64,000 nucleotides of DNA from the human T2T-CHM13v2.0 reference genome, Homo sapiens: assembly GCF_009914755.1 (NCBI RefSeq), contig NC_060946.1. The stretch is one strand, 5' to 3'. Under the pieces are notes generated by a model, which searched no databases, was not told where the DNA came from, and saw nothing but the letters and a program-made list of their open reading frames with translations. Below are positions 22,072 through 60,302 of the stretch, in pieces. The position numbers and the translations under genes are program-made. How positions within the stretch are numbered: position 1 is the stretch's first letter; each line of letters opens with the position of its first letter.

Positions 22072-23984
22072 TCAAGCCCCCCTTCCTTCCCACTCCCTAC
22101 CCCTGGTTTCCATCTCTCCTTAGCGCTCATGGGGCTGGTTCTAACCCACTTCCATGCCCATCAGTAGAGAGTCACTCTACTGAACTTCCCGGCTAAGAGG
22201 TTTTGCAGGCGCTGTTCCCTCCCACTGCTGACACCCTTCCCCAGGGAGCCTCAGGGCTTCTCCCTCGCTTCCTTCAGGGCCCTGTTCAAACAAGACCACC
22301 CTATAAAAATAGCAACTCCACGCCCACCCCCGCATGCAGTACGCATCTCCCCCTGACCCTGCACCCTTATTCTGGCTCTTCCCATGATCTGGTTTCCCAC
22401 TTATTTACTTGCTTTTCATGTTTAATGTCTGCCCTCCCATCACCCCCACTAGAATGGAAGGTGTATGAGAGCTGGGATTTTTATCTGTTTTGCTGTATGA
22501 AGTAGATGAGGGAAGAATCAAGACTGATGATAAGATTATTTCAACTCAACATACCAGTAAAACCGGCTCCAAGATCAAGACAGAGAATATTTCCAGCCCC
22601 GAGAAGCTGCCCTGGCTCTCCTTCTGGTCAGTACCCACCCCTGCCCCCAAGGGTAACCACTCTCCTGTCACCAGGAGCCCACCCGGTCTGGACCTTCCTG
22701 TCAGTGAGACCAGCGTGTGATTTTTTGCAGGCGTGGGCTTTCTGCACTCGGCATGAGCTCCGCCCCTGCTGCTGCCTGTAGCCAGGGTGACCAGTGGGCT
22801 TTTACCTTAAGCAGCAGGTAGACAGTGGGGCTGGTGACAGCTGCGGGGATCCAGAGTTCTGGGAGGTGTGGCGGACCAGCTGGGCCCAGGACTGGGGTTG
22901 GAGGTGAAAGTCAGGCAACGTCAGCTCATCGACAGCATTTCAAGCCGTGGAATTTGAGTACTATTGAGCTGGCCGTGCCACTGATGGAATCGTTTCTTGC
23001 TGCTGCAAAATTGAGAGCCACATGCTACAGGTCAGGCCTTCTGCCCCCCTATCCGCTGTGAGGTGCTTGAAGGACTGGTTTGGAAACAGACCCCTATTTC
23101 AGAAGCAGAGTTGAGGCTTAGCAAGGGAGAATGACTGGCCCAAAGTCACTCGGCTGGTAGGTTTGGGCCAGGACTCCTCGCTCCGCACTGGACACCCCTG
23201 CACTGCCTTCTGGGTGTGCCAGGTTGGCATGGGGAGGCTGGGCTCACACCCAAATCAGGACATAGCCTATCGTGAGGGTCTGGGTGAGCTGGGAGGTGTT
23301 CAGAATAGAAGAGCAACCCATGAAGGCTCCCCGGAGGAAGCAGGCCTGGCGCTGAGTCACAGGAGCCTGGGGCAGGGTAACCCCCACCTGAAGTCACTGT
23401 CTCCCCAGCAGTGACATCATTAGCAAGCCAGAATGCGCAGGGCATACAGCTGGAGGACCAGGCAAGCTGAGGCGGGGGCCAAGTGGGTAGTTCGGGGCCA
23501 ACCCCCATCAGCGGCCAATGGCCTCTAGAAGATGGCTGGGCCTCACACGCCTTGGAAACCAGAGCGAGAGGCCATCAGGGTGGGGAAGGCAGCCCATCAC
23601 CTCCTGTCCAAGTGCCTCATTTTACAGGTAGAGGAACTGAGGCCTGAGGCAGGTCATGACTATCCCAGGATTACACGGCAAGTGAGGGGCGGATGCAGGA
23701 GAGGGGCCCAGGCCTCCTCCCTCCCAACAGTGTTCTGTCTACCCTCCAAGTTCTGTCTCGCCCAGCCAAGGGCCACTCTGCTCCCGCACTGCTGGGCTGG
23801 GGTGGTGGAAGAGATGGGAAAGTGGAAGAAGGCAGGGGCTGTGTTCAGAAGGGGCCCCTGAGGCTATGAGGATGGTCCATGCCCTCAGGGAGTCAGGCTG
23901 GTGGAGGGGGAGGGAGCACAACTCAGAACTCATCTTCCTCCCCAACACGCTCCTCCCACAGTCCTATCTCCTCACCAGGCCCAG

Positions 23985-25015
<1,031 letters not shown>

Positions 25016-44929: not shown

Positions 44930-45357
44930 TCAAGGACAGCCTGGCAATGTCCTGACAAAACTTCAACGGTGGACATGCACCCTCATCCGTGGTGGCCCTC
45001 ACCACATGGGGTTGTACTCAGCACTTGAGATCAGCCAGGATAACCAGTAACAGGACAGCAAGAGGCACCCACTCTAACCAAGTCAATAAAAAGCCTGCTC
45101 AGCTCATCAACTAGGTTTCCAGGAGAGCAGCCAGTACCTCACAACCGACTTTCAGGCAGGCATTTCAGTGTTACTGGTGAGTCACCAGTTGAATTTTAAA
45201 GGGGAATGGTTCCCTTGCTAAGGGCCAGTAAGGACACAGTGCCCTCTGCTGGCAAGGGAGAAGCCTACCCATAAGCGTGCGGGCACGGGACCCCCATGAT
45301 CACATAGGTCACTTCTACTAAGTGGCAGGCCAAGCCACCCCGGGGCACTGGGCTCAC

Positions 45358-45493
45358 CTGGGTGTGGGCAATGACACGGATGACTTGGCAGTACTTCTTC
45401 ATGCTGCTGAAGTCCTTCTCCAGCTGCTTCTTGCCATCCTCATCCTGCCATTTCTTGCAGTACTTGGTAAAGGCCTTCTTCTTAGATTTATGC
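45358..45493 (-). CDS. RPL3: RPL3 exon 4 ([11 protein letters not shown]...IAHTQ)
   Basis: cctgaag|GCATAAA...CCCAG|gtgagc, 136 nt. Confidence 0.97.
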
Positions 45494-47849: not shown

Positions 47850-48900
47850 CTTCTTTACCTCCCAATGAGAACGGCGCCGAGAACCTCCACCCAAGGTCCT
47901 TCTACCCAGACAAGCAGGTTATGGGCCCTAATCCCAACTAATGATAGAATTGGTGAGGTCGAAACTTAGAAATGACTCATGGCTTTAAAAACGCCGGGCC
48001 TCCAAGCCTGCTCCCACCCTTACGGCCTCTCTCTGGCCGACCTGCAGGCCCAAAGCCAGTCCTCCAAGCGCTCTTCACAAGCCTCTCGACTTTCCAGAAA
48101 ATAGGCCAGACTGAAGTCCCCGCTGGGTCGCCCGTGCCCCTAAAGCAAACCCCCGGCGCCGGCCAAGACGGGATGGCGGCGATGCGTCGCGGATTCAGCC
48201 GTGCCGACGCCGGTGACAATGAAACGGCCGCCATTACAACACATACCATCACGCCATCAAATCCCGCCGGTAGAGGCCGGTCGGCCTTACGGGTCCGCTA
48301 TATAAAGCCAAATCTGGCCCCGCCCCTTCCGGCGTGCGAGCGCGCCCCCGCGGCAGACGACAGGTCGGGGGCACGTACCGAGCGCCATTTCCACGCACGC
48401 TCTTCCGCTCCTAGCTTTCGTTCAGAAGTTGACGTCAGCTTCGGAGACAGAAATTACACACTCTACGGCGAGGGGTCGGGTTCAAACTTAGTGAAAAGCC
48501 GCGGAGAGGTGGGCTAAGGGTGGGTGAGCCACAAATCTACGGCGTCCGGCAGCAGCCAAATTTGATAATAACGAAGAAAAATGGCTGCGTCGCTTCTCCT
48601 CCTGTGATATGCAGCTATCTCTGGAATTAGCGAAGAAAGACTGAAACTCTCGTTTCCTGGCTCCCACGCTGGTTTTGCGGCGACACCAATTTACCTTTAA
48701 TACCTTTAATCTCGGGCATCCCTCCCTCAAGCCCTATCTCTGCCATTTCTCCCATGCTAATGCAGTGGCCCGCGCTTGATTCTGAGGGTCAGGAGCGTCC
48801 CAAGCCTGCGGAACGGCCTCACGACCTCTGGTCATGCCGAGTCCAGCTGCTCAGCCTCCCGGAGCCCCACGCCTTCCAGACCTATGCATCAGCGAGGGCT
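47850..48900. promoter_or_regulatory. RPL3 CpG-island promoter
   Basis: Dense CpG. TCT-like initiator CCTCTAC at ~48276-48270; TATA-like TTTATATA ~25-30 nt upstream (48306-48299); YY1-like GCCGCCATT at 48227-48235; ETS/GABP CTTCCGG at ~48326; perfect CRE TGACGTCA at 48430-48437. Confidence 0.85.
48247..48275 (-). CDS. RPL3: RPL3 exon 1 (5'UTR plus ATG at 48249-48247)
   Basis: Minus strand reads CTCTACCGGCGGGATTTGATGGCGTGATG|gtatgt; only the ATG is coding. TSS inferred from the TCT-like initiator. Confidence 0.92.
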
Positions 48901-48979
48901 TTCGCTGATCTCTGCCTGGGCTCCAGGGTGACTCGGATCCTGACCGATTCCCTGCTTCCAGGCTGGTCCCTTACAAATC

Positions 48980-51072
<2,093 letters not shown>

Positions 51073-51501
51073 ATTGCCCCGTTTTTACATAGAAAACTAA
51101 ACTTCCAGCCAAGAGGTTAATAACTTGACAAAGTCACATAATTAGTGAAGGACAGAGCTCAAGTCTATCTGACTCCAGGTTGGTTTTTCACGGCATTAGA
51201 CTCAGGGATCAATAATCCCCTTATCGGAAAAGGAGCTTTGGAATCCTGAGCAAGAAGAAATTCTTACTGGAGGCCTGCTCTGTGCCGGGTCCTGCACCAG
51301 GCTGCAGGAATATAGAGAACAAGATGGCCACTGTCACAGACCAAATAAGACAATTTAAAATTGTAATGAAGGTTCAAAAGAAAAGTGCCACTAAGGGTCC
51401 TGGGCAAACTATTCTCCCTCAAGAATTCCCTTTCCAGTCAAGAAAGAAAAGAGCATCAGTAGACCTGAACTGCCTTGCCAGCATACAGATAGCTCACTAG
51501 G

Positions 51502-52970
<1,469 letters not shown>

Positions 52971-53450
52971 TTGGATTAGGCCTCAGTTTCCTTATCTGTC
53001 AAATGAGGAATTCATTCATTTATTCAACAAATATGTACCGAGCCTGCTTTGCCTAGCCCCATGCAGGGCTCTGAAACACGGAATAAAACAGAGGTGGGGT
53101 TGGGACCCCTGCCCTGGAAGAGATCAGTCTACCTACATCATAGCTATGAAACAGAGGCCTGTGCAAAAAGAACTGGTGAATTCCCCAATTTATGGGCAGG
53201 GTCATCAGGGAAGCCTCAACCACAGAGATGTCATTTGAACTGGGCTTCAAAGGATTCTTATTTGTCCAGCAAAAAGGGCAGCTCTCCAGGCAGTAGGAAC
53301 CTGTGCAAAGGCAGAAAGGATAAAAGACAGTGGCCTGCAGAACTAGCTGTGATTTGGCACAGCCAGACTAGAAGACAGTGGCAGGAGGCCAGTTTAGGAA
53401 GATAGGTAGGGTTCAGACCTAAAGTTTCCAGCTGGAAAACATCATCCTGA

Positions 53451-53672
<222 letters not shown>

Positions 53673-53772
53673 TAGGAGAGGATGGAAGGAGTTTTCACTG
53701 TTCTGTGTAAGCCACCAACATAGGCACCTGGCAAAGGGCACTGAAGGTGAATATACAGAAGAAAGGGATGAG

Positions 53773-54353
<581 letters not shown>

Positions 54354-54580
54354 CTATTTGTATGAGTCAGGGTGGGTGGGACAGGAAGTAGCGAGTATGG
54401 GAATCAGGATGCCCATTTTGGATATTGGGTATGTGTTGTTATTTTAGAAGGAAGAGTTTGATTTATATGTGTAGGGATGGATTCATTTATGGGGTTAACT
54501 ATATCCTTTCTCCTTTCAAGTACAGATGTAAGGCTACATATCAAGACATATGTAATTCATCAGGGTAAAAGTAAGGACAT

Positions 54581-56380
<1,800 letters not shown>

Positions 56381-56517
56381 TACAGCTGCATTCTCAATGG
56401 CTGCCTGCATTGCCCATTATGGACAAAGCAATTATGCCCTCTCTTTGACATAAGTTCATATCCTGATCTTTTGTGCTGTCATTGATCACTGCAAAACTAC
56501 CCTGCCCAGGTGACAGG

Positions 56518-57616
56518 ATGTTTGGTCCAGAGGGTCAGCTAATATGAGCTTGGGGCGTGAGTGCAGCCTCATGTCCCTGGGGCAGGAGCCTGGGTACACA
56601 GCCTTTGGGTCGTGAAGGCCCCTTGCTGTGCTTCTCCACGAGGAGCTGTGGGGGAAATGCCCCACAGAATGGGAGCTGGCTGGGCAGGGAGGTCTGGCAG
56701 ATCCTGCTTCCGTTCCTGCTGCTGTGTGGCCTAGGCCTGGTGAACTTCTGTGCATCCCTGCTGGGGCTGCAGGCGGAGATGGCAAATCCAGCCTCCCACT
56801 GGCTCTCGGTCTCCATGCTGGGCGCCTGCATCCTGTGGTGCAGCAGCCTGCCAGTGGGTGGAGGTCTCATCCTCATCCTGTCCTGGAGACTGTGCATGGA
56901 GGTGATGCTGGCTGGCCAGCGGGCCTTGTGGCAGCAGCTGACTGTTGTGCGGATCTGGAACCTACAGCTGTTCATCACCCTGATCCATGGAGCCTGCCGC
57001 TGCATCTCACGACTCCTGCAACACCTGTGGTGGGAGGCCGGCCTAGCCGTGTTCTCCATGGCCCATTGGGCCTACTACAGCCTGGTGGGCTTCCGCCACG
57101 ATAACAGCAAGGTGTTGGAGCTGCTGCTGCAGGCCGTGCTATAGCACATGGCCATGTCCCTGCTGGCCTGCTGCCTGGACAGGCTGTGGGTGGCCATGGG
57201 ACGGGTGGCCTAGGCCATGCGGGGCTGTGGCCTTCAACCCCTGGAGAGGGCCAGGCTGTGCCGGGCAGCCTCCACAGACCTGGATGCAGTCACCACTATC
57301 CTCCCAGCGACCACCATCCCTTTCAGCCAGCACTTCCCCGGACCTGACCTGGCCACCATGAGTAGGCTCTCACCAGCCTCCATGAGCCTGTGCATAGTGG
57401 TTGGGGTCAAGGATGCCAGCGAGGGAGAAGAAGGCTGTGGCTATGGGGCCACCAACATATCTCTTAGCACCAGGTTCTGGAGCAGTAGGACAAGCAAGGT
57501 GGCCTTGAAATCTTCATCCAAGCAGGCCCTCGCACAGCAGCTCAAGACGACCTGTCTCCTCATCATTTTTCTGTATATCTGTGCCGTGTCTCTCTTCATG
57601 CAGAGCTTAAAATAAA
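56518..57616 (+). pseudogene. Putative disabled gene for a hydrophobic/membrane protein, possibly TMEM270/WBSCR28-related
   Basis: One frame runs from ATG 56518 to TAA 57613-57615 with only 3 internal stops (56545, 57142, 57211). Codons are CTG/GCC/GTG-rich, the sequence is non-repetitive, and AATAAA lies at 57611-57616. Confidence 0.55.
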
Positions 57617-57914
57617 GCGATTAACTGTGGGCCGGCCCCCGGTATGTTCCCTGCCTAGCTTTGTCAGGGGGAGATAGAATGGCGACAGATCTGTCCACTT
57701 AGGCCTTTACTGGGCTGGTGGGTGGTTCCCAGTATGCAAGACACATGCATACCAGGGGCTGGGCTGGGGGACCTAGTCTCAGCCCTGTCACTACTGTGTA
57801 TCCTTGCGGAGGTTCCTTTACCCTTCTCAGCCTCAGTTCCCTTTCCTGCAAAATATAGATAATAGGACTCTGAGGAGAGGGGATCTATAAAAAGGTGTCG
57901 TTTATGAATTGTAG

Positions 57915-60302
<2,388 letters not shown>

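What the first reader, a model, noticed from the sequence alone, without database searches (positions are those of the whole stretch)
56518..57616. Candidate unannotated dead gene: 366-codon hydrophobic frame with TMEM270/WBSCR28-like motifs
Seen: track ORFs 56557..57144 and 57217..57615 are in the same frame. Extending 5' reaches an in-frame ATG at 56518 (AGGATGT, A at -3). Only three stops (TGA 56545, TAG 57142, TAG 57211) interrupt the frame, each one substitution from a sense codon. Codons are GC3-rich (CTG CTG CTG CAG GCC GTG), there are several TM-like Leu/Trp/Cys stretches, and the final TAA overlaps AATAAA. No poly-A tail or TSD is visible, which argues against a simple recent retrocopy. 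Inference from my recollection of human TMEM270: collinear motifs SAASCPWGRSL ~ GAAACPLGQAL, ILSWRLC ~ VVTWRVC, WW-x10-HWAY ~ WW-x10-HLAY, and LLLQAVL*H ~ HLLQAAFEH. This could be a unitary pseudogene of a TMEM270 paralogue that is still intact in other mammals between RPL3 and SYNGR1.
Basis: partly seen in the sequence, partly recalled or inferred. Interest (0 to 1): 0.8.

Follow-up and report, generated by a model that had tools for sequence, protein, structure and literature searches.

The report
Dead membrane-protein gene beside RPL3
About 9 kb upstream of RPL3 lies a single-copy, unannotated stretch of about 1 kb that still carries the codon signature of a membrane-protein gene but is broken by two or three stop codons; its family could not be named, and the proposed kinship with TMEM270 was not shown.

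Summary
Window 56518-57615 (+) is one 366-codon frame with internal stops at 56545, 57142 and 57211, ending in a TAA inside AATAAA. The stop count alone is weak evidence: P = 0.04 for any of six frames. The frame does carry a strong coding signature. GC at codon positions 1/2/3 is 0.56/0.50/0.75. Period-3 chi-square over 56620-57612 is 87.2, against a null maximum of 26.4, and is the highest in the window. Codon-usage score is the best of six frames and of 420 windows. The DNA is unmasked, single-copy, has no paralogue in the human genome, no poly-A tail and no tandem repeat. I read it as the disabled terminal coding exon of a multi-helix membrane protein with a hydrophobic C-terminal tail, probably a unitary pseudogene.

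The TMEM270 reading is not supported by standard tests. Pfam gives no hit, hhalign gives 2% probability, and composition-adjusted BLASTP gives E = 0.046 at best. A weak collinear resemblance remains, at p about 0.01-0.03 against shuffles. No other mammal could be examined here.

The parts
56620..57612 (+). Core of the coding-like frame, about 331 codons in the frame of 56518: a disabled terminal coding exon
   Evidence: Period-3 chi-square 87.2, first of 316 windows. GC3 is 0.8-0.9 in constant phase. Codon-usage score is +0.152 bits per codon, the best of 6 frames and of 420 windows; the RPL3 CDS control scores 0.303.
56518..56619 (+). Proposed 5' part, holding ATG 56518 and in-frame TGA 56545-56547; coding status unsupported
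   Evidence: ATG and TGA read. Chi-square 3.4 and negative codon score. Searches show no other in-frame ATG before 56779. No convincing splice acceptor: 56510 scores below the 10th percentile of 135 real acceptors, and 56643 scores 5.5, which is weak.
57142..57144 (+). In-frame TAG, first stop inside the coding-like core
   Evidence: The period-3 signal runs through it unchanged.
57211..57213 (+). In-frame TAG, second stop inside the coding-like core
57611..57616 (+). AATAAA overlapping the terminal TAA (57613-57615); a likely native polyadenylation signal with no A-tail after it
   Evidence: The period-3 signal ends here.
56713..56910 (+). Hydrophobic helices of the N-terminal half: KD peaks at 56713-56769 and 56803-56910
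   Evidence: Kyte-Doolittle 19-residue means of 1.6-2.2. A low-confidence AlphaFold2 model (pLDDT 50) shows five helices in residues 43-197 of the 198-aa piece.
57121..57177 (+). Hydrophobic segment that spans the TAG at 57142
   Evidence: KD mean 1.97.
57532..57609 (+). C-terminal hydrophobic tail, the last 26 residues before the stop, which looks like a tail anchor
   Evidence: KD mean 2.35 for residues 346-364 of 365.
57217..57615 (+). Intact ATG-initiated 132-codon ORF, the C-terminal third of the frame, ending in the hydrophobic tail
   Evidence: GC3 periodicity persists at 0.62-0.73 but the codon score is near zero after 57358.
56754..57048 (.). RefSeq functional element ('silencer', reporter-assay tile, HepG2 repressive, chromatin state Ctcf) lying inside the frame
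   Evidence: Annotation table. No match to a CTCF core consensus at 1 mismatch or fewer inside the locus.

Best explanation
Window about 56620-57615 (+) is the remnant of the last, and possibly only, coding exon of a gene for a membrane protein of roughly 330-366 residues.

The encoded protein has several hydrophobic helices in the first half, a polar stretch of about 120 residues, and a hydrophobic C-terminal tail. The stop codon sits inside the polyadenylation signal.

In this reference genome the frame is disabled by two in-frame TAG codons (57142, 57211). A third stop, TGA 56545, counts as well if translation once began at ATG 56518. There are no frameshifts. Selection on the protein therefore appears to have ended fairly recently, roughly tens of millions of years ago with a very wide error.

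No parent or paralogue exists elsewhere in the human genome and no retrocopy hallmarks are present, so it is best called an unannotated unitary pseudogene of unknown family.

Shown: the coding signature, the stops, single-copy status and the absence of detectable relatives.
Inferred: former function as a membrane protein, the unitary status and the age.
For: - Period-3 composition. GC1/2/3 is 0.56/0.50/0.75. The phase is the same in every 180-base window from 56560 to 57580 and there is no signal in the flanks. Chi-square is 87.2 against a null maximum of 26.4, first of 316 windows. In 240-base windows it forms the longest top-2% run, alongside RPL3 exons as positive controls.
- Codon usage, trained on 10,948 codons of 20 chr22 genes. 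Frame +0 scores 0.152 bits per codon; the next best, an antisense frame, scores 0.072. It is the highest of 420 windows x 6 frames.
- The frame ends exactly at TAA inside AATAAA.
- Not repeat-masked, no tandem repeat, no Rfam family.
- Single copy at DNA level. Six-frame protein searches of the genome with the 198-aa and 133-aa pieces give only self-matches below E = 0.26.
- Hydrophobic segments and the C-terminal tail.
- 3.4% of neutral substitutions in this frame would create a stop. Two to three stops therefore imply about 0.055-0.08 substitutions per site, 95% interval 0.007-0.24.
Against: - No homologue was found anywhere. The word search of named proteins found none for the 198-aa piece (reach 109-346 aa) or the 133-aa piece (reach 73-233 aa). 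Pfam found none. PDB sequences gave none, or E = 0.7. The Atlas found nothing usable.
- A gene alive until recently should have annotated orthologues. The same search found 69 TMEM270 clusters of 171-321 aa as a positive control. The blank is therefore only partly excused by the length limit.
- The 5' end is unresolved. There is no coding signal before about 56620, no in-frame ATG between 56518 and 56779, and no good acceptor.
- The codon score is near zero over 57358-57600.
- The structure model is of low confidence, pLDDT 50.
- No other species, expression data or population data could be consulted.
Confidence: 0.6

Rival explanations
1. One reading: the frame is a dead paralogue of TMEM270 (WBSCR28, Pfam WBS28), diverged beyond ordinary detection, possibly retroposed because it has no introns.
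For: - The recalled motifs exist in TMEM270.
- They align collinearly with the frame: candidate residues about 35-203 against TMEM270 73-221, including WRLC, WW-x10-H-x-AY and LLQA-x3-H.
- The mean Smith-Waterman score over 38 orthologues is 62.2. Reversed orthologues give 44.7, and forward exceeds reversed in 35 of 38.
- That mean is reached by 0 of 300 global shuffles, 3 of 300 block shuffles and 9 of 300 block-order permutations.
- 22 windows of real proteins, 10 of them whole multi-pass membrane proteins, score a mean of 34.7 and a maximum of 41.8.
- Several near-invariant family residues are matched in that alignment: W150, R151, A201, Y202, L215, Q216, A217, H221 (my reading).
Against: - Pfam: 0 hits at E <= 10.
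- PF15164 and my 38-sequence profile do not find the locus in the genome, while both find chr7 and a 34-40-codon chr1 fragment.
- hhalign: probability 2.1% for the 198-aa piece and 0.09% for the 133-aa piece. A local re-run on the whole frame gives 1.5%.
- HMMER --max gives -0.6 bits. Without the composition correction it gives 11.7 bits, reached by 4% of block shuffles and 40% of order permutations.
- Composition-adjusted BLASTP gives E = 0.077 against human exon 2, 0.046 against the best orthologue and 1.5 against the next.
- Human TMEM270 alone: SW score 58, p = 0.035 by global shuffle and 0.23 by block shuffle.
- The best alignments under different methods contradict each other.
- The invariant N-terminal block (N28 R29 H31 L32 K39 F43 W46 L50 A54) has no counterpart. 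Most C-terminal invariants are not matched: L200, T205, W206, C209, S212, T222.
- TMEM270 was not among the 18 candidates of the six-frame genome search with the frame itself.
Confidence: 0.12
2. Chance open frame in GC-rich regulatory DNA. The locus would be a CTCF or silencer element and the ORF would follow from its composition.
For: - GC is 0.60-0.65, against 0.45-0.52 in the flanks.
- Other frames also hold long open runs of 162 and 178 codons.
- P(any of six frames has 3 or fewer stops) = 0.04 and P(an open run of 198 or more codons) = 0.10.
- A RefSeq silencer tile lies at 56754-57048.
- No homologue was found.
Against: - Composition alone does not produce a phase-constant GC3 of 0.8-0.9 over 1 kb. 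Chi-square is 87.2 against a maximum of 26.4 in 2000 simulations.
- The codon-usage score is the highest in the window.
- The signal ends exactly at a stop codon inside AATAAA.
- The regulatory tile covers only 295 of about 1000 bases.
Confidence: 0.05
3. An old processed pseudogene (retrocopy) of a gene whose parent has been lost or has diverged beyond recognition.
For: - One uninterrupted frame of about 1 kb with no introns.
- The coding signal begins abruptly near 56620, as a 5'-truncated copy would.
Against: - No parent at DNA level: only a self-match at E <= 0.001.
- No parent at protein level.
- No A-rich tail after AATAAA, although only 2-3 stops have accumulated.
- Target-site duplications were not sought.
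Confidence: 0.08
4. Not wholly dead. The stops may be polymorphic in people, or a shortened product is still made, for example the intact 132-codon ATG ORF 57217-57615 ending in the hydrophobic tail.
For: - The ATG ORF 57217..57615 is intact, begins 3 bases after the second TAG and ends at the TAA inside AATAAA.
- GC3 periodicity persists through it.
- There is no frameshift anywhere in the frame.
Against: - No RefSeq transcript lies here (finding's annotation).
- The codon score is near zero over 57358-57600.
- No homologue was found for the 133-aa piece.
Confidence: 0.1

Closest known systems
Unitary pseudogenes of the human lineage (genes lost in place, with no functional copy left; GULOP is the textbook case, named from my own knowledge)
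   Same: A disabled frame that keeps its coding signature. It is single-copy, has no parent or paralogue in the genome, no poly-A tail and its own polyadenylation signal.
   Different: The defining evidence, an intact orthologue at the syntenic site in other species, could not be examined. No living family member of any kind was found.
TMEM270 / WBSCR28 (Pfam PF15164, WBS28), chr7
   Same: A Leu/Trp/Cys-rich multi-helix membrane protein. There is a collinear chain of short matches (WRLC, WW-x10-H-x-AY, LLQA-x3-H) with pairwise scores above shuffled, reversed and natural controls.
   Different: No profile hit. The invariant N-terminal block is missing. One exon against three coding exons. The frame is about 100 residues longer and ends in a hydrophobic tail, whereas TMEM270 ends in an acidic, Ser-rich tail.
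Tail-anchored membrane proteins (a general class, named from my own knowledge)
   Same: The last roughly 20 residues form the most hydrophobic segment of the frame, KD 2.35, followed by 1-2 residues and the stop.
   Different: Classical tail-anchored proteins have a single membrane segment. This frame also has several hydrophobic helices in its N-terminal half. This is a resemblance only, with no sequence relation.

Membership tests
TMEM270 / WBS28 (PF15164) | Scores above the Pfam gathering cut-off (27 bits) against the WBS28 profile | tested here: not met
   0 families at E <= 10 for all 3 pieces. The genome-wide scan with PF15164 lists 5 places, none on chr22. My own 38-orthologue profile lists 3 places, none on chr22. 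HMMER --max gives -0.6 bits.
TMEM270 / WBS28 (PF15164) | Invariant N-terminal block of the family (N28 R29 H31 L32 K39 F43 W46 L50 A54 in 38 orthologues) | tested here: not met
   In the collinear alignments the frame begins opposite TMEM270 residue about 73-82, and no upstream match was found. The alternative alignment matches L32 and L50 but not N28, R29, H31, K39, F43 or W46.
TMEM270 / WBS28 (PF15164) | Conserved C-terminal half (W150 R151; Y202 T205 W206 C209 L210 S212 L215 A218 E220 T222) | tested here: inconclusive
   In the alignments, W150, R151, A201, Y202, L215, Q216, A217 and H221 are matched. L200, T205, W206, C209, S212 and T222 are not. E220 falls on the TAG. Shuffle tests give p of 0.01-0.03. 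hhalign gives probability 2.1%.
TMEM270 / WBS28 (PF15164) | Gene structure of three coding exons | tested here: not met
   TMEM270 has coding exons of 72, 429 and 294 bases. The chr22 frame is one uninterrupted phase-constant stretch.
Unitary pseudogene | Formerly coding sequence now disabled by stops or frameshifts | tested here: met
   Coding signature. Two stops lie inside it and one lies upstream.
Unitary pseudogene | No functional parent or paralogue in the same genome | tested here: met
   DNA search gives self only. Protein searches give a best non-self E of 0.26 and 0.36. Caveat: matches in closed regions are not shown, and short diverged exons could be missed.
Unitary pseudogene | Intact orthologue at the syntenic position in other species | not testable with these tools
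   No mammalian genomes are on hand. The named-protein word search found none within 109-346 aa and 73-233 aa. A full-length orthologue of about 356-366 aa or longer lies outside that reach.
Processed pseudogene (retrocopy) | Parent gene elsewhere, poly-A tail, target-site duplications | tested here: not met
   No parent. No A-run after AATAAA. Target-site duplications were not sought.

The most novel reading that the evidence does not exclude
The frame is the last trace in humans of a mammalian membrane-protein gene family that has no annotated living member in the sources searched. At most it is a very distant sister of TMEM270. It was lost in the primate lineage recently enough to keep its codon signature. 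It may still yield a 132-residue protein with a hydrophobic C-terminal tail from the intact ATG ORF 57217-57615, or be a polymorphic pseudogene.
Probability: 0.2. Interest if true: 0.6.

Novelty: new member of a known kind. Interest (0 to 1): 0.38.

Why it matters
If confirmed across species, this would add an unannotated gene loss to the human catalogue at a well-studied locus, between RPL3 and SYNGR1. It would also mark sequence under a reporter-assay 'silencer' tile as ex-coding rather than purely regulatory, which matters when conservation or variants there are interpreted.

If orthologues are intact elsewhere, they would define a membrane-protein family missing from Pfam. They would also settle whether TMEM270, itself of unknown function, has a relative.

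It is also a useful caution for this scan. The ORF and the stop count were weak evidence. The period-3 and codon-usage signals carried the case. A collinear motif chain recalled from memory turned out to be real but did not reach significance.

Tried and rejected
- Pfam on the three pieces: nothing.
- PDB sequence search: none for the 198-aa piece, and E = 0.73 (Tai4, chance level) for the 133-aa piece.
- Atlas. It holds both pieces only as ORFs with a non-ATG first residue read as M. There were no usable relatives: the best score was 0.80, a level that a third of shuffled proteins reach.
- Word search of named proteins: none for either piece.
- AlphaFold2 on the 198-aa piece without an alignment: mean pLDDT 50.1, pTM 0.29. 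This is too poor for a fold search, so none was run.
- hhalign in global mode: meaningless, 5 columns. A decoy series with hhalign timed out and was dropped.
- Upstream exons. ORFs of 70 aa or more in 48276-56520 are Alu-derived or unremarkable. A short ATG ORF in the RPL3 promoter region was read, but I could not link it to the frame.
- Acceptor weight matrix from 135 annotated chr22 acceptors: no convincing site before the coding signal. 56643 scores 5.5, and 56773 scores 9.0 but lies inside the signal.
- An intron removing the two TAGs. I considered and rejected this by reading: the periodicity continues through 57142-57213, and the only GT...AG pair I saw would shift the frame.
- CTCF core consensus: 2 matches in the window, against 1.37 expected, and none in the locus.
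- Tandem repeats and Rfam: none.
- Weak period-3 signal at 23.7-24.2 kb: no clean ORF.
- Papers. Four full-text searches: 'unitary pseudogene' + SYNGR1 gave 0 papers; RPL3 + SYNGR1 + pseudogene + intergenic gave 3; TMEM270 gave 30, of which 15 were listed; PDGFB + RPL3 + SYNGR1 + synteny gave 0. I saw only the listings and abstract starts, none bore on this locus, and I read no paper. Supplementary tables of pseudogene or PhyloCSF surveys, which might list this locus, were closed.
- Recalled rather than taken from a call: the rate figures behind 'tens of millions of years', the low indel-to-substitution ratio in pseudogenes, GULOP as an example, and the idea that RPL3's promoter might be bidirectional.
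Full report
**1. The observation**

- An ATG lies at 56518 with A at -3.
- The two listed ORFs, 56557..57144 (195 aa, GTG start) and 57217..57615 (132 aa, ATG start), lie in the frame of that ATG.
- Read from 56518, the frame has 366 codons. Internal stops are TGA 56545, TAG 57142 and TAG 57211. The terminal TAA at 57613 sits inside AATAAA 57611-57616.
- No A-run follows.
- The translation is rich in Leu (16.9%), Cys (5.0%) and Trp (3.9%).

**2. Is it more than chance?**

The stop count alone is not convincing.
- The region is 60% G+C, against 45-52% in the flanks.
- The other five frames hold only 6-13 stops, with open runs of up to 178 codons.
- In 5000 first-order Markov simulations, 0.8% had 3 or fewer stops in a given frame, 3.9% in any of six frames, and 10% had an open run of 198 or more codons.

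The codon-position signal decides the matter.
- GC at positions 1/2/3 is 0.56/0.50/0.75 overall.
- In 180-base windows between 56620 and 57220, GC3 is 0.78-0.92 and GC2 is 0.38-0.57. The maximum stays in the same phase from 56560 to 57580, and the flanks show nothing comparable.
- A 3x4 chi-square over 56620-57612 gives 87.2 (p 1e-16). The largest of 2000 simulated values is 26.4. The locus ranks first of 316 windows across the 64 kb.
- In 240-base windows it forms the longest run above the 98th percentile, alongside three RPL3 exon regions that serve as positive controls.
- A codon-usage log-likelihood was trained on 10,948 codons of 20 chr22 genes against their non-coding DNA, with stops scored as zero. 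Frame +0 gets +0.152 bits per codon. The next best frame, an antisense one, gets 0.072 and the others are negative. This is the highest best-frame value of 420 windows. The joined RPL3 coding sequence scores 0.303.
- There is no tandem repeat that could mimic periodicity.

**3. Extent**

- The signal starts near 56620-56640, is strongest from 56700 to 57350, is weaker but in phase up to 57600, and stops at the TAA.
- There is no other in-frame ATG before 56779.
- A rough acceptor matrix from 135 annotated chr22 acceptors finds no good site. The site ending at 56509 scores below the 10th percentile of real sites. 56643 scores 5.5, which is weak. 56773 scores 9.0 but lies inside the signal.
- The 5' end is therefore open: either ATG 56518, with TGA 56545 as a third lesion, or an upstream exon that I could not find.

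**4. What it is not**

- Not a repeat. 56388-57955 is unmasked between Alu-sized masked blocks.
- Not multi-copy. DNA search of the whole genome returns only the locus itself.
- Not a copy of a human gene. Six-frame searches with the 198-aa and 133-aa pieces return self plus chance-level rows, with best E of 0.26 and 0.36.
- Not an evident retrocopy. It has no parent and no poly-A tail.
- Not an Rfam RNA.

RefSeq places a reporter-assay 'silencer' tile (HepG2, chromatin state Ctcf) at 56754-57048. A CTCF core consensus has no match with 1 mismatch or fewer inside the locus. In any case a 295-base element would not explain 1 kb of phase-constant periodicity.

**5. What the frame encodes**

- Kyte-Doolittle peaks of 1.5 or more fall at residues 66-84, 96-131, 202-220 (spanning the first TAG) and 339-364 of 365. 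The last is the strongest, at 2.35.
- An AlphaFold2 model of the 198-aa piece without an alignment has mean pLDDT 50.1. It shows a disordered first 42 residues and then five helices. That is too weak for fold comparison.
- I read this as a multi-helix membrane protein with a polar stretch of about 120 residues and a hydrophobic C-terminal tail. This is an inference from sequence only.

**6. Relatives**

- None were found: Pfam, PDB sequences, the Atlas, and the word search of named proteins for either piece.
- The word search reaches only 109-346 aa and 73-233 aa, so a full-length orthologue of about 356-366 aa or more would be missed.
- The same tool returned 69 TMEM270 clusters from therian mammals, spanning 171-321 aa for a 265-aa protein. 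A widely annotated family would probably have left some shorter entries within reach.
- I take the blank as moderate evidence that no well-annotated family exists, not as proof.

**7. The TMEM270 claim**

Standard tests are negative.
- Pfam WBS28 does not hit the pieces.
- In a genome-wide scan, PF15164 finds the three chr7 exons and a chr1 fragment but not chr22. A profile of 38 orthologues (A1) behaves the same way.
- hhalign gives probability 2.1% over 21 columns around the WRLC motif, and 0.09% for the C-terminal piece.
- Unfiltered HMMER gives -0.6 bits, reached by 9% of global shuffles and 1% of block shuffles.
- Without the composition correction HMMER gives 11.7 bits, reached by 0.7% of global shuffles, 4% of block shuffles and 40% of order permutations.
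- Composition-adjusted BLASTP gives E = 0.077 against human exon 2, 0.046 against the best-scoring orthologue and 1.5 against the next.
- Against human TMEM270 the Smith-Waterman score is 58, with p = 0.035 by global shuffle and 0.23 by block shuffle. That alignment contradicts the register found by hhalign.

Some observations point the other way.
- With several non-primate orthologues, ordinary gap penalties recover one long collinear alignment: candidate about 35-203 against TMEM270 73-221.
- The mean score over 38 orthologues is 62.2, against 44.7 for reversed orthologues. Forward is higher in 35 of 38.
- That mean is reached by 0 of 300 global shuffles, 3 of 300 block shuffles and 9 of 300 permutations of intact 30-residue blocks.
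- 22 windows of real proteins give a mean of 34.7 and a maximum of 41.8. Ten of them are whole multi-pass membrane proteins with 9-19% Leu.

The family's invariant N-terminal block is absent, most C-terminal invariants are unmatched, and the gene structure differs. My verdict is that this is a lead at p about 0.01-0.03 and not a family assignment.

**8. Age**

- With a 2:1 transition bias and a tenfold CpG transition rate, 3.4% of substitutions in this frame would create a stop.
- Two to three stops then correspond to 0.055-0.08 substitutions per site, with a 95% interval of 0.007-0.24.
- The phase never shifts, so no frameshift has accumulated, which favours the lower part of that range.
- Using primate neutral rates that I recall rather than computed here, this means roughly tens of millions of years, with an error spanning more than an order of magnitude.

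**9. Conclusion**

The locus is best explained as the disabled terminal coding exon of a membrane-protein gene with no surviving copy in the human genome, that is, an unannotated unitary pseudogene of unknown family.
- Shown: the coding ancestry and single-copy status.
- Inferred: unitary status, function and age.
- Unproven: kinship with TMEM270.

The decisive evidence is cross-species alignment, a search without a length limit, and expression and population data.

Noticed in passing
L022:1501-1602 (-), i.e. G000 chr1:7978404-7978505, inside an intron of RERE: A 34-40-codon copy of the start of TMEM270 exon 2, including the residues encoded just upstream of its splice acceptor and most of the family's invariant N-terminal block. 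E = 2e-6 with PF15164 and 2.4e-8 with my profile. It is flanked by stops. It looks like a genomic fragment duplicate of TMEM270, unrelated to the chr22 locus.
   Followed up: partly
window 56754-57048: A RefSeq 'silencer' tile (reporter assay, HepG2 repressive, chromatin state Ctcf) lies wholly inside the coding-like frame. No CTCF core consensus match with 1 mismatch or fewer falls in the locus.
   Followed up: partly
window 23701-24210: A weak period-3 composition signal (chi-square 19-26) in unmasked DNA annotated as an hESC enhancer, just downstream of lncRNA LOC124905119. No clean ORF and no constant phase. Probably noise.
   Followed up: partly
window 56605-57141 and 57217-57612: The protein Atlas already holds both open pieces, each starting at a residue read as M. 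For the first piece that residue is a TTG codon. These look like prokaryote-style ORF calls on human DNA, so human sequence may be present in sample-derived protein sets.
   Followed up: no
window 45238-45252 (-): An exact match to the CTCF core consensus inside RPL3, next to the exon at 45358-45493. Two matches in the window against 1.37 expected, so it is not significant by itself.
   Followed up: no
window 48582-48608 (+): A short ATG-initiated frame (8 codons, hydrophobic) with A at -3 and G at +4 lies about 300 bases beyond the RPL3 start on the opposite strand, inside 'active region_19044'. It could not be linked to the frame at 56.6 kb.
   Followed up: no
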